A stretch of DNA of 64,000 bases. Source: Psammoneis japonica (Eukaryota). Location of the stretch: contig QPGO01000134.1 in NCBI GenBank assembly GCA_008632985.1, forward strand, positions 1 to 64,000. The letters are read 5' to 3'. The position numbers were made by a program, and so were the translations under genes. The notes below the pieces were generated by a model. That model did not search any database and had not been told where the DNA came from. It was given only the letters and a program-made list of their open reading frames with translations. This document shows, in pieces, positions 440-27,539 of the stretch (position 1 is the stretch's first letter; every line of letters begins with the position of its first letter).

Positions 440-1215
440 AAACCCTCAACTCCAATGTGGTGCCATGCAGCGAGCGTCAATCCGCTCAACAATGTGTGGT
501 GTGCTCGCAGCACTGAAACAACCCTGTTCTTGGTGCGGACTTGTGCAATTCGAAGCGGGCCACTGAAAGCTCAAGCTTCCAGCTTCGACAGATTTGCAAA
601 CTCAATCAGTGCATCTTGTCCATCTGGACAATTGCAGGAATGGTGCTTTGCATTCTGTCCTTGTGCATTCTTGTTGACTGGCACTTGAGGGTTGGCTTGA
701 ATCGCAGCAAGATGGGGGCAATCCTCAGCAGATCCAAAATCATGTCATGTTGGAACACCAGAGCTCCACTTGAAATGCCCACAGACCTTGAGTGGAAGCA
801 TTGCAGTGCATGAGATGCAGTGGCAAGGGCATTGTCCACTGTCCCTTTGGCCTGTTGAACATTCAAAGGAGGGTCGGCAACAACCACAGTGCACAAAACA
901 TTGGCTGCGGTCTGGTGCATTCATTCAGAGAGACAGCATTGGCTGCAGGATTGCGAGACATTGTCAGAGCAGCAATGCCCATGCCCACTTGATTCAGCAA
1001 CATTTGAAACTCCCAACCAACAAACTTGCCGCCATTGTCATGGATGCATCGATTTGGTCCAGGACAATGAGCTGATCAAAGGTTGCAAAATTTGTTTGCA
1101 ACATGCTGAGAAATCTTGTTGTCAATGCGCGCAAGCTTGGTCAATCCAGCAAAGGCATCAATGCAGGTGAGGGCACTGAATTTGATCTCTTGAACTTGAG
1201 TTGGAATCTTCCAGG
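440..1215 (-). mobile_element. Decayed Ty3/gypsy element, integrase core and C-terminal part (left fragment, split by the copia insertion)
   Basis: Minus-strand translation resembles a gypsy integrase: W-KIPTQVQEIKFSALTCIDA...CIHDNGGKFVG...MHQTAANVL...VDNALATASHAL...GALVFQHDMIL. It has stops and frameshifts and is TpA- and CpG-poor. The left end is approximate. Confidence 0.8.
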
Positions 1216-1491
1216 TGACAGAAAATGAAGGCAAATGGCAAGAATTCAAACAATGACTCCTTGCTGCTGTCTAAATGGCAGATGAGTCTCCGCTCAGAGA
1301 CCGTTGCAGGAGCCGAAAGACGTGTGAGTCGGTGTGATCGGGCTGCTGTTGTTGTTCTTGTGAGCCTTGTGGCTTGAAAGCAAACTGCATCGCGCGTGAA
1401 CGCGCGGAACTAAAGCACACAAAACTGTGCACGGCAAACTAAACAGCGCGCGACACTTCGCGCGCACCCAAATCCTGTTCAAATCCTGTCA
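1216..1491 (-). repeat. 3' LTR of the copia element (TpA-mutated copy)
   Basis: Colinear with 8045-8320, without indels and with 13 substitutions. It is preceded on the element strand by a purine-rich tract. Confidence 0.97.
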
Positions 1492-4400
1492 CTCCCCAGT
1501 TTGCTTGAGGAGCCACAGAAACAGATTCGACTTCGGATGGAATGAAGTTCCAGAACATGAGGGGGTGGAGAAGGTCCCAGATTTGGGAGCAACCCCAATG
1601 CTTGCTGAGAATGTCAGCAGGGTTGCGGGAGCCTTCGATGAAGTGGAGCTCAAGGCAACCAGAGGCAATTGCCTCGCGCACACGGTGGAACGACAGTGCG
1701 GTGTGTCGCTTGTGTAACTTGGAGTGCGGGATGGTGGCACTGTCTACAACTGACTTGTTGTCACCAAACATGTAACTAACGTTGCGGATCGGGACACCAA
1801 GGCAGCGCAGGGTGATGCGCAGGTCGACAATCTGCTCAACACAAGTCCTTGCGGCAACAAATTCAGACCCGCAGGTCGCAGTCTCCACGGTGGCTTGTTT
1901 CTTAGAGAACCAATCAGCCGGGAATTTGTTGAGGAAGTGGAGCATTCCCATGACAGAGCGTCCGGTGAGCATGCAATGGCACAAGTTTGCATCGACGCAG
2001 TGGGTGGCAGTGACGAACTTGCCAAGGGGCGGTGGAGCGTCCTTCGGGATCATCTCTTCTGCTTCACCACACACGGAATGCATCCATTCACAGGCCGGAG
2101 CAGGGAGATCCGAATGGTTGGGCTCTTCCGTGTGAACGCGGAGAGCACCGTGTCGCATCTTGGAGAGGTGCCCACAGACGCTTTGGCACGATCCAAGTGG
2201 CCTTGAGGGGCGCAGCTCGGAAGCTAGAGAGTGACATGACGGCCGTGGCAATGTCAATTCGACCAAGGGACACTGCCCATTGGAGTGAGCCAACAAGAGA
2301 CTGGAACTTGTGAATGCCATCGGGTCCCAGCAGTTCGGAAGTGTCCAGTTCGGGGTGGTCACCCTTCTCTAGAGGTGACAGGGGTTGGTGGCAGGTTTCT
2401 CCCCAAACAGTCGGGCACAGCTGTCGACCATGCGCTCGATGTACTTGCGCGGAGACAGGCACAAGGTTCCGTCGGGTTCCCGGGAAAAGTCGCAACCCAG
2501 ATGGAACTCAATGGGTCCCGTGCCCTTGAGCTTGAACTTGTGCTTTTCTGTGAGAGTGTCGACGAAAGATTGAGGGTCCTTCATGGCAATGGCAAGGTCA
2601 TCCACATAAACGGCAATGCATTCACAGTGGTCGCCGTTCCTGCGCATCCAAATGTTGGGTTCTGTGCGGCAGGGGAAGAAGCCTTCAGCTCGCAGGCAGT
2701 CGGCGAAGCGCTCGTGCCAGCGGAGACCGGAGCTGCGCAGTCCATGCAGTGCCTTGTGGATGACAAGGATGTGTCCTTCGAGTTTGCCGAACTCGGGTCC
2801 AGCTGCAATGTAAAGCTTCTCCTTGGTGGTGGCTTCAAGGTGGGCATTGCCAATGTCGGTGGCCCATGTCTCCAACTCGTTGAGTTCGGCCAGGAAAATC
2901 ATCAGCCGAAGGCCACGGAGGGAGACTGCTCCGGAGTGGACACTGTCGACAGGTACGTCCGTGAGGTGCCCGTCGGCTACGAGTCGTGCCTTGTGGCGAC
3001 CGTCGTGTTTCACGTCGTACACTGGGTGCACTCGGATCTTCTTGTGTCCCGCAGGAGGAGTGGAAGACTTGAAGGGCCCGCAGTCATGGAAGACTTCGCA
3101 TTCGTCGAGTTGGTCCATCTCGAGATTAGTTGCATCTCCCCACTTGCGGTTGCCGTTGTGTTCGTCTGGTGACATGGCGTGTTTGTAGTTCCGGGGAACT
3201 TCGCATCCATGCTTGCAGCGAGGTGCAGTGCGGAAGGAGCGAAGCTTGGCTTGGTTGGCCATGCGAAATAGCTTCTTTTGGTGCCTCGCGATGGTGCGGA
3301 ACCGCTTCCAGCCATCCGTGTCGAGGAGTCCATTCTCTCGTGCATAGATGGCACAGGTGACAGGGTCGTCCTTGGCGATGATGGCAAGAGGCTCGGACGT
3401 GATCTCCCCACTTTCCCATTCAAGCATGATGTTGTAGCTGGAGCCTTTCCAGGTTGGGTCATGAGGCTTCAGAGGTCCTTCGTGTGACACGATGCATCGA
3501 AATTTCCAAATGGTGGTGTCTTCGTCTTCTTGCTCAATGTGATTCATGATGTCATTGCAGGCAAGGACTTCCTCGCATTCGTCATTGTTGACAGAGCAGA
3601 CGAACTTAGTGAGCTCGGGATTGCCGTTCACTTTCCATTCGTGGTCTTCGATGGCCTTGACGATGCGAGCTCTGTGGCGTTGTCCGTCCTCTTGTGGCTG
3701 CATGAGGAAGGTACGTCCAATGATGTCTTGCGGATCGAAAACTGGCATCTTGGGTGTCCTGATCTCCCCATCAGGAGAGTCGACGGGGTTGTCGTCATGG
3801 CGAGATTTGATGATGGGTTCAGGTGGCTCCCCATCAGGAGGATCAAGATGCAGGTTTCGAACGGCGGGATCGGGGGCAGCAGAGCGGACGTTGGACCGGT
3901 GGAGGATCTTCTGAGTCTCGTCAGATAGAATCTTGAAGGTCATCTGGTGGCCGACGTGCTCAGCAATGCCAACGAAGCGTCCACGCAACTCACGGGATTC
4001 GGACGGCCAATCGGAGTCATCGAGGTGGAAGTGCACGGGTTCCCACCAGTGAAAGCGAAGCAATGGGCTGATGTCCAGGGTGGAGCCAGTGAGAGTCTCG
4101 AGGGGCATGCGCCAGTGGAGACGTGGGGACGCTGCATGGTTGAGTGTGAAGCATGCGCACATGAGCGCCAGCAGCCATGCATGGGCGGGCGAACCAAAAC
4201 GATCCATGACAGTGTTCGTCATGCGCTTCACGGTCTGGTGTCGACGCTCGGCAAAGTTTTGGTGTTGCTGGTGAGGCTCACTTTGCCAGCTAGAGATGAA
4301 GAGGGCACGTAGGATCCCGAGCACTTTGTTGCTGATCTCAACTTGAGCACGGTCGCTGGTGAGTTTGGATGGGGCGCCACGTTCGCGGATCTGATCCTCG

Positions 4401-7105
4401 AGTGTGTTGACAAACTCTTTGTCCGTCTCAGTGCCGCAGACGTCAGTGACGGTAGACTCGGTGCCAACAAACAGTTGGGCGCTGGTGCAGCCAGAGTCGA
4501 CGGCCGGGGTGTCGGCACAAACGGTGTCAGTGGCGACAGGCTCGTTGCGGCGGTGCACATTAAGGGCGGGGTTGGGTGATTTGCAGGCCTTGCGAAGGTG
4601 TGTGCCGGCGGGCATGCGGGCGCACTGCGTGGTGCAGTCAAAAGTACGATGGACCGTGTCGGCAGGTGGGAAGCCAAAGCAAGGCCGAAGAGACTCGAAG
4701 GGGGGGTCCTTGGGCTGTGCAGTGCGCTCCGGAGGTGGAACGGCATCGCCCTGGGGGCCAATTGCATGCAGATGACACTTGCAGAACACGTCGTCGTTCG
4801 GAATGAGGTGATCATCGAGGGCGGACGCGTGATCGGCAGACAAGGAAGTGGACATGATGGTCTCGTTGACAACGACACGATGACGGCAGTTGCCGCATTC
4901 GTCAAATGGGTTGGCAGTGGGATCGTCCTGCAGGTCAGAGATCGCGTCGCACCACTGGTCGTCGTCAGTGACAGAGTGATCGAGGACGGAAGGGTCCCAT
5001 GTGTCATCACCGGTGAGGATGACATGGGGCAGGGTGTCCCATTCGGCATCAGTGTGGGGTCGCATGGCAACACAAGGCAGGCCAGCCTTGATGTCAATGG
5101 GGATGACACAGCCATCAGGAGTGGCAATGCGTTGCAAGCCGTTGGGCACCTTGACAGAGCGGTCGTTGACATCCTGTTTGCACCATTCGAGCTGGCCGCA
5201 GGAATGGATGGTCTTGCCCTTGCCCGTGCATGCGCACTGATGGAGGATGGCGATGACGGGACCACGCTGGGTCTCAATGACGGCACCAGCGGTGACAATG
5301 GGGATGTCCACCAATTGATGATCGTCAATGCCCTGAACATCGACTTGGCGAGAGGTGCGTGCAATGATGCGAACGTCGTCGCCAGCAATGCCGCCGTTGG
5401 CCCCACGATCGACTAGAGCGCCAGTGCGTGTGGAGCGATGAGCAGAGGCAGAGTGAATGACATTGTGGTTGTCAACGCGGCGGCAAGTGCGGCCGTTAAG
5501 TTCTGTGTCATCTGCAGAAGCTGGCGGGGCAGAGGAAGCGGCGGATGGCCCCGGTCGACTGGCATTGGGGGCTTGGTTGGGAGACAACAGACGTTGCAGA
5601 TCACCGGGTGGCAGTGGCTTGCGCTTGGTGAGGTGCGCCAGGATGGGATCATCCGAAGTGGTGTCCACATGTGGAGCGGAGTCACCAGAGTCAGCAGGAG
5701 TCGTGTTGGACAAGTTGACATCACCGTCACTCCCAAGGCGTTGGTCGTGAAGGTTGGCCGCAACAGACTCATGGTGGTTGCTGGCTCGCGGGTTGCGGGG
5801 AGGTGGACAAGAATGCTCAAGGATGATCGCCTTGGAGGAATCGGGCAACGAATCCCAGAGCCGTTGGTGGTCGGGAGGGAGACGTCTCCATTGGACACCG
5901 GTGAGGCTGGGACCGCGGGTGCAGGCAGCATTGGCTTGAAGGACGTCAACGTCGCTGTCAATGTCACAGAACACATCGTCGGACGGTTCCTCGGAGTAGA
6001 CGGCGTGTGCGTGTGTGGCGCGTCGGGGAGCTCGAGGTGTCGTCTTGGGTTGAAACGTGCTGTCGCACTGAGCTGCCGCGGAGAGGAGCAAGCCACAGCA
6101 TTGATCGCATGTGAGGCTCTTGCCACTCTGCGTACGATGCTGATCAGCTTGGTTCTTGACAGCACGGAGTTCCTCGACAGGGTGCACGGCATTCTCGAGC
6201 ATGACGCGCTTCTGTCCTTCAGAGAAGTGGTCGCTGGCCGGGATGAGTGCCTCGTGCTTGCGCAACTGATCTTGCCAATGAAGGATGAACCCGTGGGTCG
6301 GACCTTTCCAAGTGCCATCACCAAGACGCGCGGTGGTGAGGTGCGTGAGCAGGGTGGAGGACTCGACAGATGCGCGGGTGGAGGCAAGCGCGCACTCAGA
6401 CAAGGAGCGGCAGACGGTCTGTGCGTCAGAAGACCCCACATTTTCGCGAATGAGAGCCTTGCCCTTGTCGGTGAGAAGGATGCATTCGAAGACGGCGAAC
6501 ATGTGCTTTTGCTGTTCAGCAAAGAGCAGTTTGTCTTCAGGGCTGGTCGGTTTGTACGACGAGTCTAGAACGCACTCGACGTCTTGGGCACGGGCTTGTG
6601 CCACAAGTGAGGTGTGCCAAGTGTGCCACTGCTTGTCGGATTTGAGAGCCGTGAAAGCAGTGGGATCACGCTTGATGCCTCGCTTGAAGTCCCGCACTGG
6701 GTCGCATGCCTTGGTCGGGTTGGTGACATGTGGAGGTGCAAGGGGTGAGCTGCCGATGGACACAGAAGACATGCAGTCGGGGCTGAGGCGGTGGGCAAGG
6801 AACTCGTCATGCGTGAACAAAGAGGAGTCATTGGCAACGTCAAGACCTTTGTGTGCTTTGACAATGCACAGACTGACCAGTGCTGCTAACATGTTCTTGT
6901 AACCACGGGGCAAAGGGATCACATTGGTGCCGTTGTCGCACTCAAGCGAGTCGATTTGGGACGGCATGAACGTGAACAGTTCCTGATGCGAGTCCGTGCC
7001 GTCTTGGGCCAAAGCCAAACGAAGAGGACTCCCAGCACCTTGGGCAAGCACGGTTCCAACCACGTGCTCGAAACCATCGGTTTGTTGCTGACGAGTGAGA
7101 ACCAT
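1439..7105 (-). pseudogene. Copia gag-pol polyprotein (gag, aspartic protease, integrase, RT, RNase H), hypermutated with about 2 frameshifts near 2380 and 2190
   Basis: Motifs: ALVDRGANGG (protease), SDRAQVE and QNFAERR (integrase), HKARLVADG, DIGNAHL and YVDDL (RT), SKKQATVETAT, FGDNKSV and NPADILSK (RNase H). Covered by ORFs 2369-7135, 2088-2495 and 1439-2362. Confidence 0.95.
1492..1503 (-). promoter_or_regulatory. Polypurine tract (plus-strand primer site)
   Basis: The element strand reads ...AAACTGGGGAG immediately before the 3' LTR TG. Confidence 0.7.
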
Positions 7106-8030
7106 GGCAGACAAAAGTGGTGTCAGGACAATCAATTCTGGCTGGGAAGAGAAGGTGGACTCGAAACTTGGGTGAGAATGGACTTGACTTGAAACAGACT
7201 TGACTTGAAATCTTGAACTGTCTTGAAATCAGAAGTCGCCGGGCTTTGTCATCCCGTTCGTTGTCAAGTGCTAAACTTCCCATCCGGTCCGTAGAGTTGT
7301 GCCGGCACGTCCGAACCCGCAGCTGGCGGCACTTTGGGTTGCTTGCGAGCGGAGCAGCGGGTTGTAAACCCCTGCAGGCAAGCTGACTAGAGGTGGACAA
7401 GACCCCTGAACCGTTCTCATTTTGTGTCGGTTGGATTTCCCGATCAGGCTGGCCAGTTGACGCAGGCGTTGGGCGCTGTGGACGAACGAACAAACGCGGG
7501 AAAGCACCCTCGCCCCAACGCAGGCTGCAACCACGGCTGCTTGCTCTCACAGTCATCCTTGTGGACCTAGTAGAACTGTAGAGCACCAGCAGTCCGGGGT
7601 AGATCAGGTACAATGGACTCGGTGTGCTTGTAGAGTGGTGGCAAAACCGCAGTCCGAAGAGTGGGTACAGGTTCTTGGCCGTGAAGATGTGTATATATAT
7701 ATATGTCTTCAGCGACGAAGATCCTTGAATATGTAGGGTTCTTGACCGTTAACCGATGAATAGGTATATCAAGGGATGAGGATCAAGGATAGACTTGGAT
7801 ATGACCGTTGAATGTATGTCTTCAGCGATCAAAGGTAGTATAATCAATCCAGATATCCAGCGGTAAGGAGACTTGACGGTGACGTTAACTTCCTGCCGAT
7901 GCCCTGGTATTGAATGCGCGTAGACTTGCCGATGTATGTAGGATATATACGGAGGTCCACGTAGAATTGAAATAGCGTCGTTGGTAAATCAACGACGACG
8001 ATGGCGGTTGCTCAATGGGTTGACAATGAG

Positions 8031-8044
8031 CAAGACTGTTAATC
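8031..8044 (-). promoter_or_regulatory. Putative primer-binding site complementary to the anticodon arm (5' half) of tRNA-Asn(GUU)
   Basis: The plus strand reads CAAGA-CTGTTAA-TC and abuts the 5' LTR. There is no TGG (anti-CCA) type PBS. Confidence 0.6.
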
Positions 8045-8320
8045 TGACAGAAAATGAAGGCAAATGGCAAGAATTCAAACAATAACTCCTTACTGCTGTC
8101 TAAATGGCAGATGAGTCTCCGCTCAGAGACCGTTACAGGAGCCGAAAGACGTGTAAGTCGGTATAATCGGGCTACTGTTATTATTCTTGTGAGCCTTGTG
8201 GCTCGAAAGCAAACTACATCGCGCGTGAACGCGCGGAACTAAAGCACACAAAACTGTGCACGGTAAACTAAACAGCGCGCGACACTTCGCGCGCACCTAA
8301 ATCCTGTTCAAATCCTGTCA
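8045..8320 (-). repeat. 5' LTR of the copia element (TpA-intact copy)
   Basis: 276 bp with TG...CA ends, followed by the CCAGG duplication. It retains 15 TpA sites. Confidence 0.97.
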
Positions 8321-10060
8321 CCAGGGCTCAGCAAGAAGGTCAACTGCTGCTTCTGACCAGAGCTGACAGTGTGTGCTTGACGTTGTGGCAATTCTCTGCA
8401 TCCAGGACCAAGTTGCTTGAAATGTTGACATGCATCACAAACAAACTCATCACAACATCAATGCAATGCAGGGTGATGCAGGCAAGGGTGGGTGCTCTCA
8501 TGCAGATGTGTGACTCCACAATGGCCCAACACATGATGACAACAAGGGAGAACATCAGGCACAACAACACCGCTGGAACTCAAATCTTCCACACTCCAGG
8601 TGGGTCATTCAAATGAAAATGACAACAAATGAGAGGATGCTGGTTTAAGATCTTGGCCATGAATTGCTGAGGATTCTGCTGTTGCTTCTGATTCAACTGG
8701 GGGTCTTTGAACTGGGACTGCACAAACATGGAATGCTGGTGGGCTGTGGCTCAGGCAAGCCAAGAGTGCTTCTGCTGCAGTCATTGCCTTCATCTTGTTG
8801 AAATGCATTCTGACATGCGCCCAACCAGTGGAGCTGGCTCTTGCCTGTCAACTCATTGATGCAAGCAAGTGAAAACAAAAAGGTCACACATTGTGACAGT
8901 GGGTTGACTTGCGGCACCCAAAAACAAATGCAGTTGTGTGCAGCAGTCTGTGGAGGTTGCACGCAAAGGATGGCTTTGACTTTCTTCTTCTGCAGCTTGA
9001 CTCCATTTGGCATGAGCCAATGTCCCAGAAAATCCATCTCCTGAGCACACCATTTGCATTTCAACAGATTCACCTTCAAGCCATTCTCCTTGAGATGATG
9101 TGACACCTTGTTGAGACAAGAAAGATGAGAGTCAAAGCAAGCGTCAAAAGCGCCAATGTCATCAACACAGGCTTCAACATCCAAACCATGTGAAATCTTT
9201 GCAATGATGGACTGCACAATTCTGGAGCCAGCTTTAATCCCACAGCCATTCAACAGCACTGAAACCCACTGCAGGGAGCTGCAATTGTTGCTGGCTCCTT
9301 GCTTTCTTCATCCAGCTCCAAATCATGACAGAACATTGTGAGGTCAATCTTTGTGAAGAGCTTGTGTCCCGCTCTCCAATGCAGCACATCTTGAATCACT
9401 GGCAGAGGATGGACCATGCCCACTGCACACAGCCATCTTTCTTTGGAATGACTGCAGGTCCACATGGTCACAGTGCTCCCAGCTCCACCAAATGCTGCAG
9501 CTCCTTCTTGAATGTTTCTTCATTGGCTCAAGGAAAAGCAAAAGGTTTTGAATGACAAGGCACAGCATTTTCATCTGCTTCCAGGTGCACCTTTTCATGA
9601 GGTCAATGGCCCAGCATTCCATCAAACAGCCTTGAGCACTTCTCCAACACCGCCAGCAGCTTTGTCTTTTGTTCTTTAAGTCAAATGATCCAAATTTTGA
9701 ACAATGTCCAAAGGATCCATTGCTTCATGCTTGGCATCCAACACACAGCTGTCGCATCCGTTGTTGCAGCCACAACCCAACTCATCCTTGCAGTCTTCAT
9801 CAAACTCATCCATTTGATCTAGAGCCACACCAATTGCAGGACTTGGACCAATGGCAAGGTTCTGTCATTAGAATCTTGCGGTCTGGCCAGCACAGAGTTC
9901 TTGCATTGTGGTTCAAATGGGGTCCAATCTTGTCCAAGAAATCTCAACCCAAAATGATGTCATGCACACACGGAGCATCAAAAACATGAGCAACAATGCA
10001 GCCATCAACTCTTTTCATCTTGTTGAATGCTGGCAGCACAATGTTCTTTGTGTTGCCACA
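8321..10060 (-). mobile_element. Decayed Ty3/gypsy pol (protease, RT, integrase HHCC region), continuous with 440-1215
   Basis: IVLPAFNK...VFDAPCVHDIILG*DFL (protease), FTKIDLTM and EACVDDIGAF...GLKVNLLKCKW...DFLGHWL (RT), HHVLGHCG...CDACQHFK (integrase zinc finger). The reading frame joins across the duplication as EPW|KIP. Confidence 0.88.
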
Positions 10061-12965
10061 AAGCTGAAAATGCAATGAACAAGCTGTTCAACAATGTGAT
10101 TGACCACTCAGATGACATGCAGCACATCTGCTTCTGGCTTTCAGAGTTGCAAGATGTCATCTGTGAAGCAACAGGGAAACATGACGGTGTTGTTTTGGTC
10201 TTTGCACCAAATGCATCAGATGTTGCCCAGGTTGTGCTGGCACAACATTGGAGACAAGAAGCCAACTGTGGTGGGAAGGGTGCGCACAATGAATTCATTC
10301 CAAAAACAAAAACTTTTGTGAGTGAAAATGCTTGTGCAAGTGAGTTGATTGATTTGACATTGACCAATGCACAACAAAGAGAGAAGTCAAAAAGGTGACT
10401 CAGAAAGAGCTGTTTCCAAAAGCAAAATTCTTTGCCAAAGAAGACATGTCAAGTGGTCAAAAGGTGTCATGGCCAATGCGCAAGAATGCAGCTGGTGGCA
10501 GATTCAGCAAGCAGCAAGACTGGGCAGGAATGTGGGAAGACTGGGGGCAAAAAAGTGCATCTTCAGTGCAGTCAACACCAAAAAGGAACACCGTCACCCA
10601 GTCAATGATGAAGAATGTGACAAGTCACAAAAGTGCTGCAGAAAACATTGCCAAAAAGGTGTTGAAAATGATGCTGCCAACACAATGCTCTTTTGCACAA
10701 GTTGTGCTGACAGCAGAACAAGCAGAGGAAATCCATGGGCAAAAGCATGGCAGGAACAGAAAAGGAACAAGACAAAAAAATTAGAAAGAAGGGTGCTGCA
10801 CACCCATTGAAGAACCACCCTTTCCAACTCATGAGGACAAGACTGTGGAAATCATTGTGGGTGAAAAATTGGCCAACAAGGAAGCACGCACATGGCTCTG
10901 CAACAATGCACTGAAATTGATGAAGAGCGCTGTGGTGTGGAGAAAGTCAGGAATCAGCAAGGCTGCAGAGCTCCCTGTTGCAAACAACAAGGCTCTGGGG
11001 CTGTTGTGATGTTGGAAAACTGCTGGAAAATTGGGAAGCACAAGGCCATGAAGGACAAGAAGATTTGAGAGGGAGATGTTGCTGGAGATGATGATGAGAA
11101 CAACAAAGAAACCCCGGCGCCTGTGTGCAACGCCAACCAAGCAAAACAGCACAACTTGTTGAGAGATGCAGGAGCACAGCAGTTCAACATGCTGTGTGAG
11201 GAGGTGAAGGAAGACAGGGCAAGCAAGCCAGGTGTGCAGCTCAACACAGGGTGCAGCAATGACAACAAGAAGAAAAGTGATGAAAAAGGCAAGAGTGCAC
11301 CAACCACCAAAAGAAAGGGCACAAAAGGTGGCAAAAACACAAACCAAGCTTGAGCTTTCTGGCAATGACAAGGACAACATGGAAGAGAAAATGGGAAAAG
11401 ACAACAAAGAAGAAGACAGTTCAAGTGAAGATGAACATGGTGCACAAAAATCCACACCAGTCTGGCAAAGGAACCGTGGTGGTGCCCATTGAAAGCCCAA
11501 AATGATGCACAACAAAGTGGTGAATTGGCAATCATTGACAACTGTGCACACAATGCATTGCACTGTTCAAATTGCACACAAATGCCAACACAAAATGTCA
11601 CAATAAAGTTGGTTTCAAGGGGGGCCATCAGCTTGTTTTTTTTTTCACATCTTTTCCGGGTTTTTCCACATTTTTGATGGGTCGTGACAGAAAATTCATG
11701 ACACAAGCATGAGTGACAATGACGACGTTCACGATGAGTGGTGAGTTGCAAAGTGTCACCTCACAAGGGACACTCATTGGTTTCATCATCGTGACACAGT
11801 GCAGATTGATTTGCGTGCTTTTGTCCCTCGTGCCACTGGGCCAATTTTGAGAGATGGCATGACAGCCGTCATTGTTGTGCTTTGATTGTGGTGCCTGATG
11901 CTCTCATTTTTGCATGCGATCAAACAATTTTTACTGGGACAGAGGGTGGGCACTTTGATGGAGAAAACAGGTGGCTGTTTCACAATGGGCAGACTGGGGC
12001 AGACCCCGTGGCAATGAAATGTTTGTCTGTCACAGTCATTGGGTTTTCACCATGCAAACAACTGGCCATCTTGAATCTGTCATGGTGTTAAATTGTCACC
12101 CATGAAACAGTTAAAAAATGCTGTGAGACACCCCACACGCGCTCTGATGCACCAGCCAGGGTGCACTGTGGCAAGGAAAAAAGTGCTTCTTTCCTTTTTT
12201 TGTTGACACTGAACCACTGGTCAAAGGGGTCAGCAAGCTCCTTCATTTCTGCCACAGGCAGTGGAGTTGATGCTTTTTTGCCCTCATCAAAGCTCTCCAA
12301 CTCTGTCATGCTGTCCAGTGTGGCGTCTGCTCCCAGTTGGCACCTGCTCCACACTCGCAACTGAATTTTCAGAGATGTGCCACCAAGATTCAACAGCACA
12401 GCACCTCTCCATTTTGACTGCTTCTCTGAGTTGCCCAAGAGCTGCAGTCACTTGCACCGACCAGTGCGAGGTTCGTTCTCACTGGCAAGGGCACGAGCGC
12501 AGAAGTTGTGCTTCTCTGGATCTCACAGCACTTGTCACCCCAGCTGCAAACGCGTGCATCATTTTCACCCCAGCTTCTCAGATCATCTTCCAATGAAGCC
12601 TTCTGAGGCAGCGGCTTCATGCTCTCGAGGCCCAATTGACATTGGGGCCCAAATGCTGCAGACTAGTCTTTGGTGCATGCGGCTGCCTTTCCATCTCCAA
12701 GATTGGGATTAAAAAAGGAGAGTTCTGCAGGAATCACAGCGAACATTGTCCCCACCACAGGGTGCGTCCGTTGCTCTCCAGCAGAAGTCCTTCCGCTGAC
12801 AACATTCCAAAGCACTGATGTTGTCGGCAAGCACCGTGCGGCGCAGCACTTGCTTTGGATGAGCACTTGAGAAGTCATTGGCAGGTGCTTGGGCACAACC
12901 TGGTTTTGCGAAGCAACAGCGGGAAACCAACAACAGAGGTTGACCGACCGTCAACCCATCCACGC
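10060..12965. mobile_element. TpA/CpG-depleted decayed repeat region with unidentified ORF remnants (probably TE-derived)
   Basis: Broken plus-strand ORF remnants (e.g. KELFPKAKFF...W...KRNTVTQSM) and minus-strand remnants at 11800-12960. TpA is almost absent. I do not recognise the family. Confidence 0.5.
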
Positions 12966-12982
12966 CAAGTAGATTTTTTTAT

Positions 12983-13547
12983 CTAGAGCCTGACAAGTGC
13001 CTCCACTCTGCGCGATGGCATGTCTTGTTGCGGTTTTGAAGGACGAGCAAGGACGCTGTTCGGAAACAAGTCACCGACGGCTGTGGCGTCATTGTGGCAC
13101 ACCTCTCGTTCTGCATCTGTGTAGAACTTGTGAAACGCTGCTTGTTTCATGGGGACAAAACGTCCTCTGTCTTGAGACAACAAATGCTCGGCCTCTTTGG
13201 TGACGCGTAGCAACTTGTTGCCATATGCCATATCCGCCAAGTTACCCAGCACAAGTGCGCCCACGACGATGGGTACGCCAAAACTGGTGGTGGCTTGCGT
13301 CCGGCAATTTGTGCCATGGTCGCTCCAGTCACGAGGGTTGCCCAAGCCGTCCCATAAATCTGCAGCGTGTCACGTGCTCTGGCTACTTGGACAGCCATTT
13401 GTACTTCTCTCTGGAGCATCATTCGTCGCGCAACTTCATCTTCAATGCTGGATCGAATCTTTTGAAACTTTGACGACCCTCCACATCGTCGTCTTGCTGC
13501 TGCCCAGTGCTTTGTTTTCCGACTTGCTTGCTGTTTGAACCTCCCAT
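12983..13547 (-). CDS. Plasminogen receptor KT (PLGRKT)-like membrane protein; two 1-nt frameshifts, probably assembly errors
   Basis: MGGSNSK N-terminus, then RRMMLQREVQMAVQVARARD...VPIVVGALVLGNLADMAYGNKLLRVTKEAEHLL, which resembles the PLGRKT family. Frames are restored by one extra base in a G run and one in a T run. Confidence 0.7.
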
Positions 13548-14281
13548 GATGAGCTGCAAAGCGCCACAGTCTGTGATGTGAGGTAGCGTGTACTCGTAGC
13601 GTTGGCCGAATCCAGAATAGGGTGATGTGAAGGTGTTTTGTTGTTCTTTGGCTATCGGCGGGAGCTGGCGCAGTAGAATTCGAAGCTGTTCGCCTGTTCG
13701 CGGGTCACCAAAGATGCGCGCAGTGAAGCCACCAGGCAGAATGGCATCCATTGATGCCGTATCATAATTACTAGAGAGTAGCTACTCTAGAGTGGCATTG
13801 TGGTGGTAGTAGAGAGTATAGCCATGAGGCACTCCTGCAAAAGTGCCGCACTCTAGCTCCAGTGGCTCTCTCGAGGGCGGTCCACATCACCTTTGACTTC
13901 AGTGAAAAATGATTTCAAGCTTGCTTGTAATTTCTTAGGACTGTTCCTTATGGACATTCGGTTATCTTCTTCTCATTTCATTCAGCATTACACGATGTCC
14001 TGGTTAATGATCTCCTTCTTGACTTTTAACCGAAGCAAAATTTCGTAGCATTGTAAATGCTCCAGGTAGAAACACTGCTGAAGGTACATGCATGTGCTCG
14101 TGAAGAGAGAATCGTCCATTCTTCGATCGCACCATCGTACCAGTAGTGCATCCGCCGCTGTCCAAAATGTCTAGACAATGTTACAAATGTACGAGTAGTT
14201 TTATATCTATTTACTTTAGAGTTCAAACCGGATAGGTTTGCCATGGAAATCCGCTTTTCGAATCATCGACGACTCTCCTCG

Positions 14282-16193: not shown

Positions 16194-18309
16194 AATGACA
16201 CAAGATGCCATGAGCTGATTCTTGGAAATTGGCATTACATTCCTGGTTTTTCACGCACGTCAGCGGCGATCAGAAGGGACGGAAATGGGAATTACGAATC
16301 ATCTGCAGCACACAGTAACTTTGAGTGCAGGTAGTAGAAGTAGTATGTAGTAGGTTTTATACCAAGACGAACCTATGTGGCGGATCGCGTTTTGATCAGG
16401 TGAAACAGAGTCGGTCAGGATCAAAGAGTCTCATATATTCGCGATCTCTCTTTTTTTCTCCCTCTCTCTACACCCCTCATGGGCAGTTTGAAAAAATGAA
16501 TGCGGCGAGACAATGCAGGAAAAAGCAAGAGGGAAACTGGAGTTGAATGCTGTAGCTCTATTCATCCTTGTCACTTGCACCAAGATTAAGGTCACGGCAT
16601 GCCCTGATATCACACATAAGAAGATAGATGACATGTTGTCGGTAGCGTAGCTAGAGGCGCTGCTGTATTATAGTCGTCTTTCCTTTACGCGATGCACGCA
16701 CAACCTATTTTGGGAGTGGACAGACGGATGGAAAAATTCTGGAGAAATGAGCGAGTCGAAAAGTCAAAATGCTGCAGCTGACCTCAAAACAAGGATGAAG
16801 TCGATGCATCCTGAATCATCAAGCAAGCAATCTACCCTCACTCTAAATCTCAGTGTGGAGATCAGAACAGGGCAAACCAGAGGCACCGTGGGAGCTGGCA
16901 CATGCCTGTGCTGAGTGGAGCTCCAGCTTGCTGCTTGCCATTTGAACACATGTGCCCTGTCTGTGTGTCATTGCATTTCTGCTCGGCCACTCATTGCAGC
17001 ACCTGGCAAGGTGGAGCTGCACAGCAGAAATGGTGTTTGGTTGACAATTTGCAAAGGGGAGGTCCAAACACAGCAAAGATGGCCACAGCTCCAGCAGCTT
17101 GAAGAGCGTTCAGCCATGACGCCCGTTGCTTGTCTGCACAACCTTTGTCTCTCACCAGCTCCCATCCATCACATCTGGCTGGGAACTCCCAGGTTCTCAT
17201 GTCTGTTGGGCAGCTGTCAATTGAAGCTCTGCCTGCCAAAACAGAGAGGCTTGTTGTCAAAGGCATTGGCAAGGTGTTCTGGGCACTTCAAGCCATGGAT
17301 GAAAGCAAAGCTCACATCCACAGACTTGTGTTGCTGCTGCTTCTGCACACCCAAAGCCAAAGTCCACTGGCTGGTGGTGCCACACAGTCTTGCCATGCAG
17401 CCTTTCCTGGAAACACCTCCAATTTTTCTCTTTTGAAAGCACATCAATGAGCAGGGGATGAAGCATTTTGTGTCTTGTGCCAGCCTTGCTTCCCATTGAT
17501 TGACACGTGTGAGTGCTCTTCTTCTCACATTTGAGCACAATGTGTTGGCAGCTTGCTCATTGAGGGTCTTGAGAAACTGATGCACAGCTTCTGTTGAATG
17601 TGACTGCCACTTGGAGCTGTCTTTTTCCACGTGCCAACCTTTTGACAAGCCTTTTAACAAGCCTTTGCCAGCAATGGCTTTGCATGGTGTCAGGGAGAAC
17701 ACCATGTTGACTGGCTGCACTTGTCTTGCTTGGTGTGAAAGAAGCACACTGTCCAAATCAAAGTGTCACCTGGGGTCCATCAAAGACTGTTTTGATGTCC
17801 TCTGCTGGCAGTTGTTGCCCCCCACCACTGCCCTCTGGAGGCACAACAGTTTGGAAACAAGTCAAGTCCAGCTGCTGCTGTCAGGGACAAGATGATGTGG
17901 TGGGACCACAACACCACAAGATGAACCTTGCAATGCCCAACCACAGTTCTCAAAGTCACACTTGGGGCCCACCAAAGACCACCAATGCCCTCTGCTGGCA
18001 GTTGTCAGGTTGGTTGGTGCTGTCATGGGGCCCTCATGCTCTGGAGGTTGGCAGCATCAGGTTCATTCTAAAATTGTCATGGCATTGTTTGTGTTCACAC
18101 CTGACCATGCACAAAATGACAACATTGTGCACCACTTCTGGTGTGCATGTGACCTTTGACACACAAAAAGCAAATGCAAAACAAACAACAAGAGTTGACA
18201 AAGGGTCCCCCTCCATTTGTTTTGACCTCAGCAAAGCACAAAAAAATGCACACACACTTGTCGCTGCCCATTTGGCCAAATTTGAGCAAAAAACAAACAG
18301 CAAATGACC

Positions 18310-19480
18310 CACCTCAAGAGCTGCAGCTGGACATTGCAAGGCAGATTTTGTGGTGTTGTGGCCCCATGTCACCTTGTCCCCAACAGAAGCAGACTTGAGC
18401 TTCCAAGTTCCAAACTTGACAGCACCAACAACCAACTTAACCACAGCAAGCTGAGAGCATTGGCAGTCTTTGGTGGACTCCAGGTGTGACTTCAAGAACT
18501 GTGGCTGGATGTTGCAAGGTTGATGTTGTGGTGTTGTGGCCCCATGATGTCACCTTGTTCTCAATGCCAGGAGCAGACTTGAGCTTCCAAACTCAAGAGT
18601 CCAAGGACCCCAAGGACAGCACACCAGCCAACCCAACAACAGCAAGCTGAGGGCATTGGCAGTCTTTGGTTGCCCCCTGGCATTGCCCCTGGAACTGTGG
18701 TTGGATGTTGCAAGGTCAATGTTGTGGTGTTGTGGCTCCATGTCACCTTGTCCTCAACAGAATGAGCAGACTTGACTTTCCAAACCCCAGAGTGCAGGGA
18801 TCCCATGATGGTGCCAACCAACCCAACAACTGCCAGCAGGTTGCACTGATGGTTTGGTTGCTGGTGGCCCCCATGCAACACTTCAAGAACTGTGGCTTGG
18901 TGCTGCAAGGTTGATCTTCCGACCCAACAACAGCAAGCTGAGGGCATTGGCGGTCTTTGGTTGCCCCCTGGCATTGCCCCTGGAACTGCAGTTGGATGTT
19001 GCAAGGTCAATGTTGTGGTGTTGTGGCTCCACGTCACCTTGTCCTCAGCAGAATGAGCGGACTTGACTTTCCAAACCCCAGAGTGCAGGGATTCCATGAT
19101 GGTGCCAACCAACCCAACAACTGCCAGCAGGTTGCACTGATGGTGTGGTTGCTGGTGGGCCCCATGCAACACTTCAAGAACTGTGGCTGGGGTGCTGCAA
19201 GGTTGATCTTGAAGTGTTGTGGCCCTGTGCCACATTGTGCCCAACACAGCTGCAGACTTGAGCTTCCAAACTCCAGAGTCTGAGGACCCCGTGACAGCAC
19301 CAACCAACCTGACAACAGCAAGCTGAGGACACTGGTGCTGTCTGGTGTGAACCCCAGGCAATGCTTTAAGAGCCATGGTTGAGCATTTTGCAAGGTCAAT
19401 CTTGTGGTGTGGTGGCCCCATGCCACATTGTCCCCAACAGCAGCAGACTTGAATTTCCAAACTCCAGAGTTGCTCATTCA
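18310..19480. repeat. Tandem array of ~195-bp units, with an inverted partial copy at ~17760-18055
   Basis: The anchor TGCAAGG recurs at ~18335, 18512, 18708, 18903, 18998, 19195 and 19388. The stretches 18630-18920 and 18921-19210 are near-identical. Confidence 0.85.
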
Positions 19481-22185
19481 AAGGTTTGACTGCTGAGTCA
19501 AAGCTGTGAAAAGGAATGTGCTGGGAATGCCAGAAATGTGGAGTTGTTTTGTTGCAGTGTCAAAATGGCTTGAAGAGGAAAATTTAGAAATTTGAAGCAG
19601 CACTTTAAAAAGGTTTCTCTTTGTGGGAGCAATGAAAAAACTGTGATGAATGGGGAAGCTTTCTTCCACATCACTCTGATCTAAAGTTCAAGCAAGAACT
19701 TATCCAGTGAGATGATTGGCTGGGATGAGAATTGCAAATGTGAGGTTCAGCTTTGCTGGTTGCATGCTGCACAGGTTTTGGAGGCTTGCAGCCTTGCCAA
19801 GCTTTCTTGTCATGAGTTGAGTCTTCATGGCCAATCTCATTGATGACTCAGTTGTTGCAATGTGGCACCACTCACCTGTGCTGACCTTTGCACAGAGTCT
19901 CAAAGTCAAGTGAGTTTTATGTTGCCAAAGCCTTGGTTGCAACTGCTGCTCATGGAGTCTGGGTCCAGAGGTTGGGTGCATGGAAAACAGCACCTGTCAT
20001 CTTTCTCTTCAACAAGCAAATTGTGAGCACCATCACTTGGACAAGCATGGCATCCAAACAACCCTCTGCAATCTTCTGCAAGAGAGACAAAACTGGTGCA
20101 TTTTCAGAGCAACAAAGAAGAGCTGCACAAACAGTGGACATGATTTGGTGTTCACTTGCAGAAATCCTCTGCCACAGCTGAAACACAGTGCAGCATGTGC
20201 AGTCACAGACTGAAACAAAAACCCAAAATCAAATCACAACCATGTTGGCCCAGATGACTTGGCACCCCAAAAAGTGTCAGCAGCACATTTGTTGTTGATC
20301 AACAGCTTTAATTAAAGTGGTGCTGAACAAAGCGCAGATTGACCCATGCTGTGATCTGGGTTAAGTTGGAGGACGACAAGCATTTGTGGCAACAGGAAGC
20401 ATGAATGATGACATGGATTAAAAATGACAACATGGAAATTGCAGGGGCTGCTTGACAATGTGAGTCAGGCTCCAGAGTGCAAATTGACATTGGACATGAT
20501 GAGGAAAGGACTCAAGTTTGCAGCTGCATTGTTTTGTCAAAAAGGGGTTTGATTTGATGACAAGTTCATGTCAAAAGGAGAGTCTTTTCATTGTTGTCAG
20601 CCATGCAACAAGGACACAGTGGGTTGTGACAGGGGTGCACCACTGTCATGAAAACAACAGATCAGCAGCTGAGTTGTGTGGTGCCCAATTCAACAAAGCA
20701 ACAAGCACGCATCAGAAACACTGAAAAACATGCAGTGGACAATTGGGCTGAAGATCTTCCAAAAAATGAACCAACTCTGACCAAGATGCCAGGCCACAAG
20801 ACACAAGACAAGACATTGCAAATCCATGACCACTGGAAAAATTGGTTGTGAGCCTCAAATGATGACTTTGGCAATGCCAGATTTGCAACTGAAAATGAGC
20901 CAGTGTCAGAACATCATTCAAAATCACAGCGGCAGCATTGGCCACCTTGTTTGATTTTTGCAAAATCATGACACCTGTGAAGGGTGCAATCACAGGTGCA
21001 AGAATTTTGATTTTTGCCTTTGTCTTCTTGTCAAGAGCATGTCACAGATGCACTTGGAGGCCTGGCTGATCTTTTGCCAGCAGCGCACCTCAGTGTGTGC
21101 AAGCATCAGCACCTTTTGAGTTGTCACAAAAGGTCCAGTCAATGTGACACTTGTTGCCAGATGATGGCAGCTCTGGCTGCAATCAGAGGCATTGTTGGCC
21201 CTGAAGCCAAGAGCAAAGAGTTGACACTTTTGCTTCCATGCTGTGATTGCCTTTGTCACTGTCCCTTTTGCTGCCAAGGCAGCTGGGCTGGCCACTTTTT
21301 GCATGTGGTCAAGATCATTGCAGTGTGCTGAGTGTCATCTTTTGATTTGCTTGTGATCCCTGGCAGAAAATGCAGGTGTGTGCTTGTTGACTCATGCCAC
21401 ACCAGCCATTGCTAACTTGTCTGCTTTGTTCAGGTCATTCAATGCTTTTGGGGCTTTCCCTCTTGCCAATCTGAAACAAAGAGCGTTCTTCAGGAGCTTG
21501 CTCAAATTGTTCTTCATTTGATTCAATCCACAGGAACATGAATTGCAGCAACCAAGAGCTTCTTCATCTCCCTTTTTTGCAGCACAGGATCATGGAAAAA
21601 GAAGTGATCTGGATGGAAATTGTCAATGCTTGCTAATTCTGGTGTTGCAACAAAGAGTGGCGCAGCATTTTTTTGCCACCAGATTTGCTGAGCAGAGTCA
21701 TTTTTTTCCAGCTCACACTGAAGAAACATCTTTGGATCTTTCAGAGCAGCACTTTGGTGTTTCCTTCATGACCTGCAAGGTGGTCACATCTCATGCTTCA
21801 GCAAAAGGCTTGTCACCTTTGTGTGCTGAATCACTCAGTGCAGCTTCTGTGCTGCTGGCTGCTGTTGTGGTGCCAGCATTGGTGACAAGCACAGAGAGAG
21901 TGTGGCAACTCTTTTGCACTGAGAGAGCATCAAGGGTGGAAGTGTGAATGCCTGCCAAGCTGCTGGTGTTTTGTTGAAAAAAATTGTGAAGAGTTTTGCA
22001 CAAATTTGACTCCTGGGCATCCACCCATCAGAGCAAACAAAGCTGCTTTCTGACATCTGCTGCTGACATTTTGTTGTAAAAAATTGTAAAGAGTTTTGCA
22101 CAAGTTTAACTCCTGAGCATCTGCACATCACATTTGACATTGATGGGCAACACTCCTGTTCAAATGTCCACAAAACTTTTTGTGC

Positions 22186-22186
<1 letters not shown>

Positions 22187-22245
<59 letters not shown>
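22187..22245. repeat. (AAC)n microsatellite, ~19 units
   Basis: Perfect trinucleotide run, seen directly. Confidence 0.95.
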
Positions 22246-23583
22246 ACCAGTGGTGCAATGCAAGCAAAGCCATGTGCTTTCATTTTGCTTCATTGAACTG
22301 TCTCACAATTTGATTTTGATGTTGCAATCAGGTGTGCACTCAGTCTTCTCTTTGCCAGCACTGCAGCCATTGGGGCAAAGCAAGCAAGAGGAACAAGCAA
22401 CTGGCAAAAACTCTAAAGAAGAGACTGAGCCCCAAGATGCAAAAGGAAGAAAAGTGCCCCCCACATGAGAGGAGAAGAAGCCTCTTCCTTGCATGCTCAA
22501 ACAACTCAACCAAAGACATCACTCAGCTGGCAGATGAGGTTTTTTGCTTTCAGATGTTGCCACAAGAGAGCCAGCTCTTTGACAACCATGAAGATCCAAA
22601 AGAAAGCAGCTGGCCTGCCAGGACTCATCCAACCACAATGGTGAAAACACTGCCAAATCTTGTCATCAGCTTGGTCAGCTCATCAAGACTTGGGCAATGA
22701 TGAGCCACAAAGACAACAAGCACAAGACAGAGCACACTGTTGTTGACAAGATGATTCCATGTTTGCTTGCTCTCCTCTCATTTTGTGCCAGAACATTTGT
22801 GGGCTGCAAATGCCATCGTCAAGTTGATCAGAGAGGTGTGTGATGAAGATGATGCTGATGGGCATTTTGTGACACTTGCACAGATGTCGGCAAGTCATGG
22901 GTTGGACGTGTGTGTGTGGGTGATGAGTGCCAAACACAGGCCAGAAGCCCACGAACATTGTGGATGTCCTTCTCCCTGACATTCATCATCCATGCATTGA
23001 ACATTTTATTGTCACGCTTTGATGGCCACTGCACTGAAGAGAAAGAAACAACGTCAGCAATGCGTGCATCTGATTCATTGGATGAACCCACCCCCACGCC
23101 GCCGTCCAGCAAAGCATCCAGCCAGTGGCTTCTAGTGTGAAAATTTTTGCGCACATGATGCATCTGGCTGTCATCCCACATGCTTTGATTTGGTCACATT
23201 GGATTCTCTTTGTTCTTTGTGAATCATCTTTTGCCATGTGGCATCCAGTGACAGAAGCAGATCTGGACAGAGTCTTGGTGGGAGGGAGTGTGGAGCACCT
23301 TTTGCATTTGGCTGACTGGAGTGACCACAGCGCACTTCACTTTGGAGATCACCTGCAGCACTCCAACCTTGGCGGACACGAGGGTGGCACATGGGAGCCA
23401 TCATTCATGAGTTGGAGAGTGAGTTCCAAGTGCAGCAGCAACAAGCCGAGGAGCTCTTGATGACTGCATTTTGGCTCAAAACTCTGCCAAACAACATCCA
23501 AACTGACTCCAGAGACAGCAATGCATCAGCGCTTCAGTGGCTTTTGGATGCTCTCGAGGAAGTTAGAATGGAGTCATGCTGTG

Positions 23584-23703
23584 CACAGACAGGTGATTTG
23601 TTCAATTGGCACTTTGGTTCCATCTTTTGCTCCCTCAGAGATTGCACAGACAGGTGATTTGTTCAATCGGCACTTTGGTTCCATCTTTTGCTCCCTCGGA
23701 GAT
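23584..23703. repeat. 61-bp direct tandem duplication
   Basis: GCACAGACAGGTGATTTGTTCAAT...CTTTTGCTCCCTC occurs twice. The internal differences are at CpG sites (AATTGG vs AATCGG, CTCAGA vs CTCGGA). Confidence 0.9.
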
Positions 23704-27000: not shown

Positions 27001-27039
27001 AAAACCACTGGCACTCATCTCACAAAGATGAGAAGTCTG

Positions 27040-27530: not shown

Positions 27531-27539
27531 GCCCTTCAG

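What the first reader, a model, noticed from the sequence alone, without database searches (positions are those of the whole stretch)
1439..7105. A mutator that disables proteins without making stop codons: systematic Tyr->Cys/His in gag-pol
Seen: motifs that normally carry Tyr read ETATCGSEF, LRCLGVP, KHWGCSQ, HCVDANLCH, DIGNAHL, KALHGL and ERRHQTVK, and the gypsy RT YxDD reads CVDD. From the genetic code, TA->TG/CA cannot create a stop and removes TAG/TAA stops (to TGG, CAG, CAA). This explains a 1588-aa ORF staying open and the dense spurious ORFs in all six frames. Inference: such dead elements will be annotated as intact Cys/His-rich genes, and the process could supply raw material for new ORFs.
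Basis: partly seen in the sequence, partly recalled or inferred. Interest (0 to 1): 0.72.

Follow-up and report, generated by a model that had tools for sequence, protein, structure and literature searches.

The report
TpA hypermutation of diatom retrotransposons
A jumping gene in what is probably a diatom, like its sister copies, had most of its T-A steps rewritten to T-G or C-A after insertion, turning tyrosines into cysteines and histidines without adding stop codons; this looks like a mutation-based genome defence found in print only once, in an unrelated alga.

Summary
Window 1216-8320 is a young Copia element. Of 43 conserved tyrosines, 33 read Cys or His. Across 37 copies, TpA sites occur as TA, TG or CA, almost never CG. 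Mean loss per copy is 61%, against 4.6% for CpG and 0.2% for other transitions. The two LTRs of single insertions differ at these sites, so the change is post-insertion DNA mutation, not family consensus, RNA editing or RIP. Hits are independent and strand-symmetric, favour TAY, and show no selection. TpA loss co-varies with CpG decay in identical sequence (5' LTR spared for both), so silenced, probably methylated, chromatin gates it. TpA sites next to a repeat block are polymorphic in sequencing contigs. Two metagenome elements of another family show the same signature. Corrections: the ORF is 1578 aa and ends at a frameshift; TAA to TGA stays a stop; CpG decay adds TGA stops; loss of function is inferred. 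The enzyme is unknown; adenine deamination is my best guess (0.55). The substitution was reported in Bigelowiella natans (2026 preprint), and this scan noted the process repeatedly elsewhere in this genome.

The parts
1211..1215 (.). Target-site duplication CCAGG (left)
1216..1491 (-). 3' LTR, 276 bp, TG...CA; heavily hit (3 TpA left)
1492..1500 (-). Purine-rich tract next to the 3' LTR (likely polypurine tract; role inferred)
1496..2368 (-). End of RT and RNase H part of pol; all 7 conserved Tyr read Cys or His; three single-base deletions private to this copy between about 2180 and 2390
2369..7105 (-). gag-pol ORF, 1578 aa to a frameshift-derived stop; Pfam RVT_2 E 4.6e-26; 26 of 36 conserved Tyr read Cys or His; YVDD kept
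7106..8044 (-). 5' leader; about 7500-8044 keeps its TpA here and in 22 of 34 copies scored, and CpG decay is also low there
8045..8320 (-). 5' LTR, 276 bp; largely spared (15 TpA). 12 of the 13 differences from the 3' LTR are TA versus TG/CA, 1 is CG versus TG
8321..8325 (.). Target-site duplication CCAGG (right)
8326..13100 (.). Older TpA- and CpG-depleted block with a gypsy-type RT remnant (RVT_1; CVDD at 9158-9169); the Copia element sits in DNA of this kind (also about 500-1210)
12640..13850 (.). Margin of the block: 13 TpA-site transitions between assembly and sequencing contigs, in both directions; overlaps a weak DUF2368-like ORF
16701..23900 (.). Old TpA/CpG-depleted block
26651..28325 (.). 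TpA-depleted block holding a multi-copy repeat and a fragment (about 27281-27530) of the host gene at 31344-32420, with Tyr read as His or Cys; the source gene keeps its TpA
44026..46000 (.). Old TpA/CpG-depleted block

Best explanation
A host activity mutates chromosomal DNA in silenced repeat domains, converting TpA to TpG on either strand (read as CpA on the other). SHOWN: it acts after insertion, in DNA, on both strands equally, one lesion at a time, in patches of about 200-300 bp. It prefers 5'-TAY, leaks weakly onto other adenines, and is about 20 times faster than CpG decay. It follows the same spatial pattern as CpG decay. One hit destroys the TpA target on both strands, so sites end as TG or CA, not CG. 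Tyr codons (TAY) are its best targets and no TA>TG/CA change makes a stop, so copies decay by missense with open frames. INFERRED: the chemistry is adenine deamination (A to inosine, copied as G) by a host deaminase of the TadA/ADAT class or an unrecognised one, recruited to 5-methylcytosine-marked heterochromatin. It works as a genome defence that leaves copies as dead ends.
For: Three-state sites: TA 1183, CA 1157, TG 740, CG 3 at 105 columns in 30 loci. Per-copy loss in 37 copies: TpA 19-83% (mean 61%), CpG 4.6%, other transitions 0.2%, transversions 0.06%. LTR pairs (35 of 37 copies): 309 TpA-type differences, 43 CpG-type, 15 other transitions, 8 transversions. No strand clustering (0.513 against 0.517 +/- 0.006 permuted) and no coding-strand bias after context control (fold 1.05). 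TAY against TAR mean hazard 0.98 against 0.41, p 2e-8. Residual TpA in old blocks is YTAR 30, RTAY 0 of 44, against 197 and 391 of 1257 in gene-rich DNA. Rare A>G outside TpA is 2.5 per 1000 against 1.4 for non-CpG C>T, with the same 3'-pyrimidine preference (odds ratio 1.7, p 8e-5). Chromatin gating: 5' LTR kept and 3' LTR lost 232 against 26 for TpA, and 34 against 9 for CpG (p 2e-4); CpG loss in spared leaders 3 of 439 against 412 of 9706 in the same copies' bodies. No excess of synonymous outcomes. The genome encodes a DNMT5-like protein (Tudor, DNMT hit, SNF2) and an ADAT2-like protein with HAE, PCxxC and Asn at the TadA D108-equivalent place, read by eye. No MPG/AAG glycosylase was found. 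The same substitution was seen de novo in B. natans mutation-accumulation lines.
Against: No enzyme is identified. All nine cytidine/adenosine-deaminase-fold hits and two editase-domain genes look like housekeeping types, and none showed a chromatin domain in the frames scanned. The Asn in ADAT2 is described as highly conserved in ADAT2 orthologues, so it does not discriminate. The one natural DNA-editing ADAT2 prefers GAA and also deaminates C (PMC10354150), and ADAR2 prefers UAG (PMC10661471), a slow context here. Sequence cannot tell an A-centred lesion from a T-centred one on the other strand. Methylation is inferred from CpG decay, not measured. Endonuclease V is present, and a failed MPG search does not show absence. 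The defence function is not shown: the family still reached many copies (410 candidates). The 37 copies are the top matches to this copy, not a random sample. A few sites may carry inherited states (one pair of lightly hit copies agrees at 26 of 28 shared sites).
Confidence: 0.55

Rival explanations
1. The lesion is on thymine (T>C in 5'-RTA) and is made by the methylation machinery or a partner, for example a RID/DNMT4-like or DNMT5 enzyme acting off-target, or a thymine oxidase, giving a modified T that pairs with G. It may be a by-product rather than a defence.
For: TpA loss tracks CpG decay in identical sequence. The genome has 27 C5-methyltransferase hits, including one next to a chromodomain. 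Diatom DNMT4 enzymes are related to fungal RID and have no known function (10.1101/2021.06.11.447926).
Against: No known DNMT chemistry gives T>C (own knowledge). No TET/JBP hit was found, though that search rang in no control and is uninformative. DNMT4 was found only in diatoms among the transcriptomes screened, so it would not explain B. natans. Another paper confines DNMT4/RID to fungi (PMC12344493).
Confidence: 0.2
2. Error-prone repair synthesis (Pol eta/iota type, G opposite T) or biased T:G mismatch repair, active in methylated DNA where 5mC deamination triggers repair patches.
For: Patchy hits over 200-300 bp, coupling to CpG decay, and a weak A>G excess outside TpA.
Against: Pol eta favours WA, yet ApA is not hot (1.6-3.3 per 1000, like CpA and GpA; the WA motif is recalled). 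No strand-coordinated clusters as one synthesis patch would leave. No dependence on distance to CpG. Transversions stay at 0.06%.
Confidence: 0.15
3. Changes arise during retrotransposition (RNA editing or RT error), or Cys/His is the family consensus, or the direction is RIP-like (CA/TG to TA).
For: The target is a retroelement; a few sites have no TA left in any copy.
Against: The LTRs of one insertion differ at 309 TpA sites in 35 pairs. Both strands are hit equally. Three-state sites need TA as the source, and 475 plain TG/CA columns are invariant. Homologues have Tyr. A host-gene fragment is hit too.
Confidence: 0.03
4. Base-calling or assembly artefact on modified DNA.
For: The assembly differs from sequencing contigs by 8 indels in 10.5 kb.
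Against: Contigs of run X1 cover the TA-free block 8421-12431 with 3 substitutions, none at a TpA site. X1 may be the assembled sample and its library is not on record, so it is not fully independent. The signature also appears in metagenome contigs of another family and was PCR-validated in B. natans.
Confidence: 0.02

Closest known systems
TpA hypermutation of integrated NCLDV and virophage DNA in Bigelowiella natans (Mettrop et al., bioRxiv 10.64898/2026.01.13.699255)
   Same: Same substitution (TpA to TpG/CpA) on chromosomal DNA, confined to silent or foreign regions, running against the usual AT bias; TpA-poor predicted CDS enriched for reverse transcriptase and DDE domains; enzyme unknown, ADAT2 proposed.
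   Different: Different supergroup (probably a diatom). Here it saturates: TpA observed/expected about 0.05 over about 36% of the window, against 0.45 in their NCLDV region. The targets are LTR elements and captured host fragments. The main text has no mention of diatoms, LTRs, tyrosine, stop codons or trinucleotide context and reports no measured link to CpG decay in the parts read. Their evidence is de novo mutation; mine is comparative.
Repeat-induced point mutation (RIP) of filamentous fungi
   Same: Dinucleotide-specific transition hypermutation that destroys repeats in chromosomal DNA and is associated with cytosine methylation (own knowledge; for the DNMT4/RID link).
   Different: Opposite direction: RIP makes TpA from CpA/TpG and creates stops. 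Host duplicates of 78-90% identity outside the blocks are not hit, only one partner of a duplicated fragment is hit, and there is no strand clustering.
APOBEC3 / ADAR editing of retroelements
   Same: Motif-specific deamination-type transitions in LTR elements.
   Different: Those act on one strand of a replication intermediate or on RNA, before integration (own knowledge). Here both strands are hit after integration and the two LTRs differ.
Ty1/Copia LTR retrotransposons of diatoms (CoDi; Maumus et al., PMC2806351)
   Same: RVT_2 domain, TG...CA LTRs, target-site duplication, single gag-pol frame.
   Different: 76 of 80 related metagenome loci show no Tyr to Cys/His excess and have TpA observed/expected 0.43-0.89. 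Placement in a named CoDi group was not tested.

Membership tests
B. natans-type TpA hypermutation | TpA to TpG/CpA transitions on both strands of chromosomal DNA | tested here: met
B. natans-type TpA hypermutation | Confined to integrated foreign or repeat regions, host genes spared | tested here: met
   margins and captured host fragments are also hit
B. natans-type TpA hypermutation | About 1000-fold raised de novo rate in mutation-accumulation lines, active in some lines only | not testable with these tools
   Only hints: polymorphic TpA sites at a block margin; a rough rate of about 1e-7 per adenine per generation from LTR dating with a borrowed clock
B. natans-type TpA hypermutation | Same enzyme (ADAT2 proposed) | tested here: inconclusive
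   An ADAT2-like gene with the cited motifs is present, but these are general ADAT2 features
RIP | C to T at CpA, creating TpA | tested here: not met
   Direction is TA to TG/CA
RIP | Triggered by sequence duplication, both copies hit | tested here: not met
   Host duplicates not hit; fragment hit while the source gene is spared. No near-identical host duplicate was tested for its spectrum.
RIP | RID/DNMT4-type methyltransferase required | tested here: inconclusive
   Many C5-DNMT genes; no phylogeny run, no function test
APOBEC/ADAR retroelement editing | One strand edited before integration; LTRs identical at edited sites | tested here: not met
Pol eta A:T mutagenesis | WA hot spot including ApA (recalled) | tested here: not met
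Ty1/Copia LTR retrotransposon | RVT_2-type RT, paired TG...CA LTRs, 5-bp target-site duplication | tested here: met
CoDi lineages | RT clusters with named CoDiI/CoDiII elements | not tested

The most novel reading that the evidence does not exclude
Diatoms of this lineage, and other microbial eukaryotes, have a native chromosomal-DNA adenine editor that reads 5mC-marked heterochromatin, is still active, erases TpA from every silenced repeat, and spreads into neighbouring host genes: an A-to-G counterpart of RIP that kills by missense. Its enzyme would be a natural double-stranded-DNA adenine deaminase with a TAY motif.
Probability: 0.35. Interest if true: 0.92.

Novelty: new variant of a known kind. 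Interest (0 to 1): 0.7.

Why it matters
Mutation-based genome defence was known as C-to-T (RIP, APOBEC). An A-to-G process acting on chromosomal DNA was found in print only once, in an unrelated alga, with the enzyme unknown. This genome shows it at saturation in dozens of dated copies, which fixes its motif (TAY), its symmetry and its coupling to CpG decay, and makes the enzyme and targeting testable by knock-out plus mutation accumulation. A natural double-stranded-DNA adenine editor would interest base-editing work. In practice, dead elements keep long Tyr-poor, Cys/His-rich frames that mislead gene callers, and LTR-divergence dating of such elements is inflated more than ten-fold unless TpA sites are masked.

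Tried and rejected
Strand-coordinated (processive) mutation: absent. Nucleosome or helical periodicity of site rates: best R2 0.063, below the 95% permutation level 0.077 for 100-260 bp. Dependence on distance to CpG: none. Coding-strand bias (1.74-fold raw) vanished after context control. Selection for synonymous outcomes: none. Flank TpA content against mutation load: not significant; 60 of 70 flanks are already TpA-poor. The subfamily test is not clean because its 'non-TA' columns probably include missed TpA sites, so I draw little from it. My first pairwise classification mis-binned TG-versus-CA pairs and was replaced by per-site tables. A search for a deaminase fused to a chromatin domain found none. 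The TET/JBP search was uninformative. No RNA holder was listed, so expression is unaddressed. Four top hits (P0121-P0123, P0213) scored high because of internal duplications, not Tyr loss. Literature searches for a diatom report (and term look-ups) found none; the library lacks most subscription papers, and bioRxiv supplements were closed.
Full report
What is there. Window 1216-8320 is a complete Ty1/Copia LTR retrotransposon on the minus strand. It has two 276-bp LTRs (1216-1491 and 8045-8320, TG...CA), a CCAGG target-site duplication and an RVT_2 domain. The host is probably a diatom. My basis is a SAFAP-type plastid targeting motif on the FBPase ORF (motif recalled), a DNMT5-like gene and earlier notes of this scan.

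The observation. All eight motifs are present; the gypsy CVDD lies at 9158-9169 in an older neighbouring element, and the Copia YVDD is intact. Against the best 120 of 1328 homologues, 33 of 43 conserved Tyr columns read Cys (20) or His (13), 6 keep Tyr and 4 are Phe or Trp. Tyr is 0.6% of the ORF against 3.0-5.0% in homologues. The ORF is 1578 aa from the ATG and stops at 2369 because of three single-base deletions found only in this copy. These may be assembly errors: 8 indels separate the assembly from sequencing contigs over 10.5 kb.

Direction and timing. A search of the own genome gave 410 candidates, of which 40 were scored. I took 36 of the 39 other matches at full length; three near contig ends were left out. 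In 30 loci over 1216-4900, the 105 columns with TA in any copy hold TA 1183, CA 1157, TG 740 and CG 3 times, while 475 plain TG or CA columns are invariant. The three-state pattern needs TA as its source, which is the reverse of RIP. In 37 copies, 215 such sites have lost TA in 19-83% of cases per copy (mean 61%); CpG loss is 4.6%, other rare transitions 0.2% and transversions 0.06%. The two LTRs of single insertions (35 of 37 copies) differ by 258 TA versus TG/CA, 51 TG versus CA, 43 CpG-type changes, 15 other transitions and 8 transversions. LTRs are identical at insertion (established knowledge), so the mutation is post-insertion and in DNA. Pairs of copies agree at shared mutated sites no more than site bias predicts (0.667 against 0.661; maximum 26 of 28 for two lightly hit copies). 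Synonymous outcomes are not favoured. Both results fit dead-end copies. Background LTR divergence is 20 of 7007 sites. With the B. natans baseline rate as a borrowed clock this is about 4 million generations and about 1e-7 changes per target adenine per generation, a rough figure that assembly errors would bias.

Anatomy of the mutator. Hits are not strand-coordinated (0.513 against 0.517 +/- 0.006 in 500 permutations), and residual covariance fades by 200-300 bp. The raw coding-strand excess disappears with context control (fold 1.05). A pyrimidine 3' of the adenine raises the rate 2.2-2.6-fold; T at -4 to -2 and A at +2 lower it. Old blocks confirm this independently: of 44 surviving TpA, 30 are YTAR and 0 are RTAY, against 197 and 391 of 1257 in gene-rich DNA. 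Rare A>G changes outside TpA exceed non-CpG C>T (2.5 against 1.4 per 1000) and share the 3'-pyrimidine preference; ApA is not a hot spot.

Targeting. The 5' LTR and leader are spared. In identical LTR sequence, TpA is kept 5' and lost 3' 232 times against 26 for the reverse, and CpG 34 against 9 (p 2e-4). In the 22 of 34 copies with a spared leader, CpG loss at 7701-8044 is 3 of 439 against 412 of 9706 in their bodies, and against 8 of 240 in the 12 copies whose leader is hit. TpA loss and CpG decay therefore share a chromatin state, most simply 5mC-marked silencing (inferred). Duplication alone is not the trigger. Five host duplicate comparisons in the window (78-90% identical) show ordinary spectra, whereas a fragment of the 31.3-32.4 kb gene inside the 26.7-28.3 kb block is hit and its source is not. 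Contigs of run X1 cover 7300-17800. The old block 8421-12431 differs from the assembly by 3 substitutions, none at TpA, which argues against a base-calling artefact, though X1 may be the assembled sample. Of 23 substitutions outside the element, 14 are TpA-site transitions and 13 of these lie in 12644-13849, the block's margin. There, 8 have TA in the assembly and 5 have TA in the contigs, with a 33/31 depth split at 13794-13851. This suggests recent, allele-specific spread into single-copy DNA; it is one locus in one sample.

No TA>TG/CA change can create a stop, and 57 of 111 TpA sites scored in the ORF are in Tyr codons. Opposite the tyrosines of homologue P0001, the copies have Cys 926, Tyr 590, His 468 and a stop once. 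25 of 37 copies have no in-frame stop; 15 of the 18 stops are TGA, 7 opposite Arg, as CpG decay predicts, and some others are side effects of frameshifts. 16 of the 36 other copies have no frame-breaking indel. In old blocks TAA and TAG fall to 0.10 and 0.05 of expectation while TGA and ATG rise to 1.6. ORFs of at least 100 aa number 42 against 8.2 in base shuffles and 38.6 in dinucleotide simulations, so dinucleotide composition explains the excess. Tyr-free Copia proteins are in public gene calls (2 of 120 listed). That the proteins are inactive is inferred from the loss of tyrosines invariant in all aligned homologues. No RNA run was listed, so the 'new ORF' idea is open.

Breadth. Of 80 related metagenome loci (best 80 of 418 confirmed), 2 are TpA-free with Tyr to Cys/His (L129, L142), 2 are partly so (L132, L135) and 76 are not. 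L129 matches G000 at only 67-72% (40 of 385 candidates scored), so the process probably occurs in another organism carrying this kind of element, but not in most.

Mechanism. I favour adenine deamination in double-stranded chromosomal DNA, gated by methylated heterochromatin (0.55). The genome has TadA-like, ADAT2-like, dCMP-deaminase, RibD-like and two further deaminase-fold genes, two editase-domain genes, endonuclease V, and no MPG hit (the gene-type names beyond Pfam are my reading). None stands out. Known motifs do not match: amphioxus ADAT2 prefers GAA (PMC10354150, passages) and ADAR2 prefers UAG (PMC10661471, passages). A thymine-centred lesion from the methylation machinery (0.2) and error-prone repair (0.15) remain open.

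What is known. I read parts 1-4 of 5 and ran a term search; its supplements were closed, and Table S2 could hold the flanking context. It reports the same substitution de novo in B. natans viral insertions, with TpA-poor CDS enriched for RT domains. I saw passages of 10.1101/2021.06.11.447926, PMC12344493 and PMC2806351, and term counts of 10.1101/2025.10.24.684338 and PMC8147415; the other papers only as search listings. Ten searches found no report in diatoms. This scan has noted the process many times on other pieces of this genome (65 notes match); these are not independent support.

Verdict. Real, strong and not an artefact. It works like a reverse-polarity RIP but is not RIP. It is best filed as a new variant of the B. 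natans TpA hypermutation: saturating, aimed at transposons, TAY-biased and coupled to CpG decay. Interest 0.7.

Noticed in passing
L077-L079, L196, L197 (G000 contigs C297, C301): Several copies of a C5 DNA methyltransferase gene lie inside TpA-free domains and are themselves Tyr-free (0-0.5% Tyr): methyltransferase genes, perhaps carried by a mobile element, hit by the mutator.
   Followed up: partly
L194 625-7500; L080 1231-3508: A DNMT5-like gene (Tudor, DNMT hit, SNF2) and a DNMT domain next to a chromodomain-bearing frame (DNMT4-like by architecture; no tree made).
   Followed up: partly
G000: No MPG/AAG glycosylase hit (the control rang in 4 of 14 genomes) while endonuclease V is present; poor hypoxanthine repair could favour A>G fixation.
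   Followed up: no
L070 319-1791: Deaminase-fold domain fused in one frame to a 2OG-Fe(II) oxygenase (DIOX_N); probably purine salvage.
   Followed up: no
L082, L083/L084: Two distinct adenosine-deaminase (editase, ADAT1/ADAR-type) genes; one lies next to a TpA-free block.
   Followed up: partly
L071 1348-2290: ADAT2-like protein with a long insertion between the HAE and PCxxC motifs.
   Followed up: no
window 12640-13850: Allele-level TpA polymorphism at the margin of a repeat block, overlapping a weak DUF2368-like ORF.
   Followed up: partly
window 7682-7709: A TA-repeat tract in the 5' leader survives in most copies although it is all target.
   Followed up: partly
window 37759-41267: Two fructose-1,6-bisphosphatase-like genes in inverted orientation, 73% identical, untouched by the mutator.
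   Followed up: partly
window 24350-26615 and 28600-31109: Tandem DUF4116-repeat genes separated by a TpA-free block that holds a multi-copy repeat of about 200 bp (27570-27790).
   Followed up: partly
window 17850-19470: Degenerate direct and inverted repeats, including a 292-bp tandem pair 96% identical, inside a TpA/CpG-free block; element type unknown.
   Followed up: no
L129, L142, L132, L135; P0233, P0155: The same TpA loss and Tyr to Cys/His in metagenome Copia elements and predicted proteins of other families.
   Followed up: partly
flanks of L031-L066: 60 of 70 flanks are already TpA-poor: this family inserts into, or survives in, pre-existing mutated domains.
   Followed up: partly
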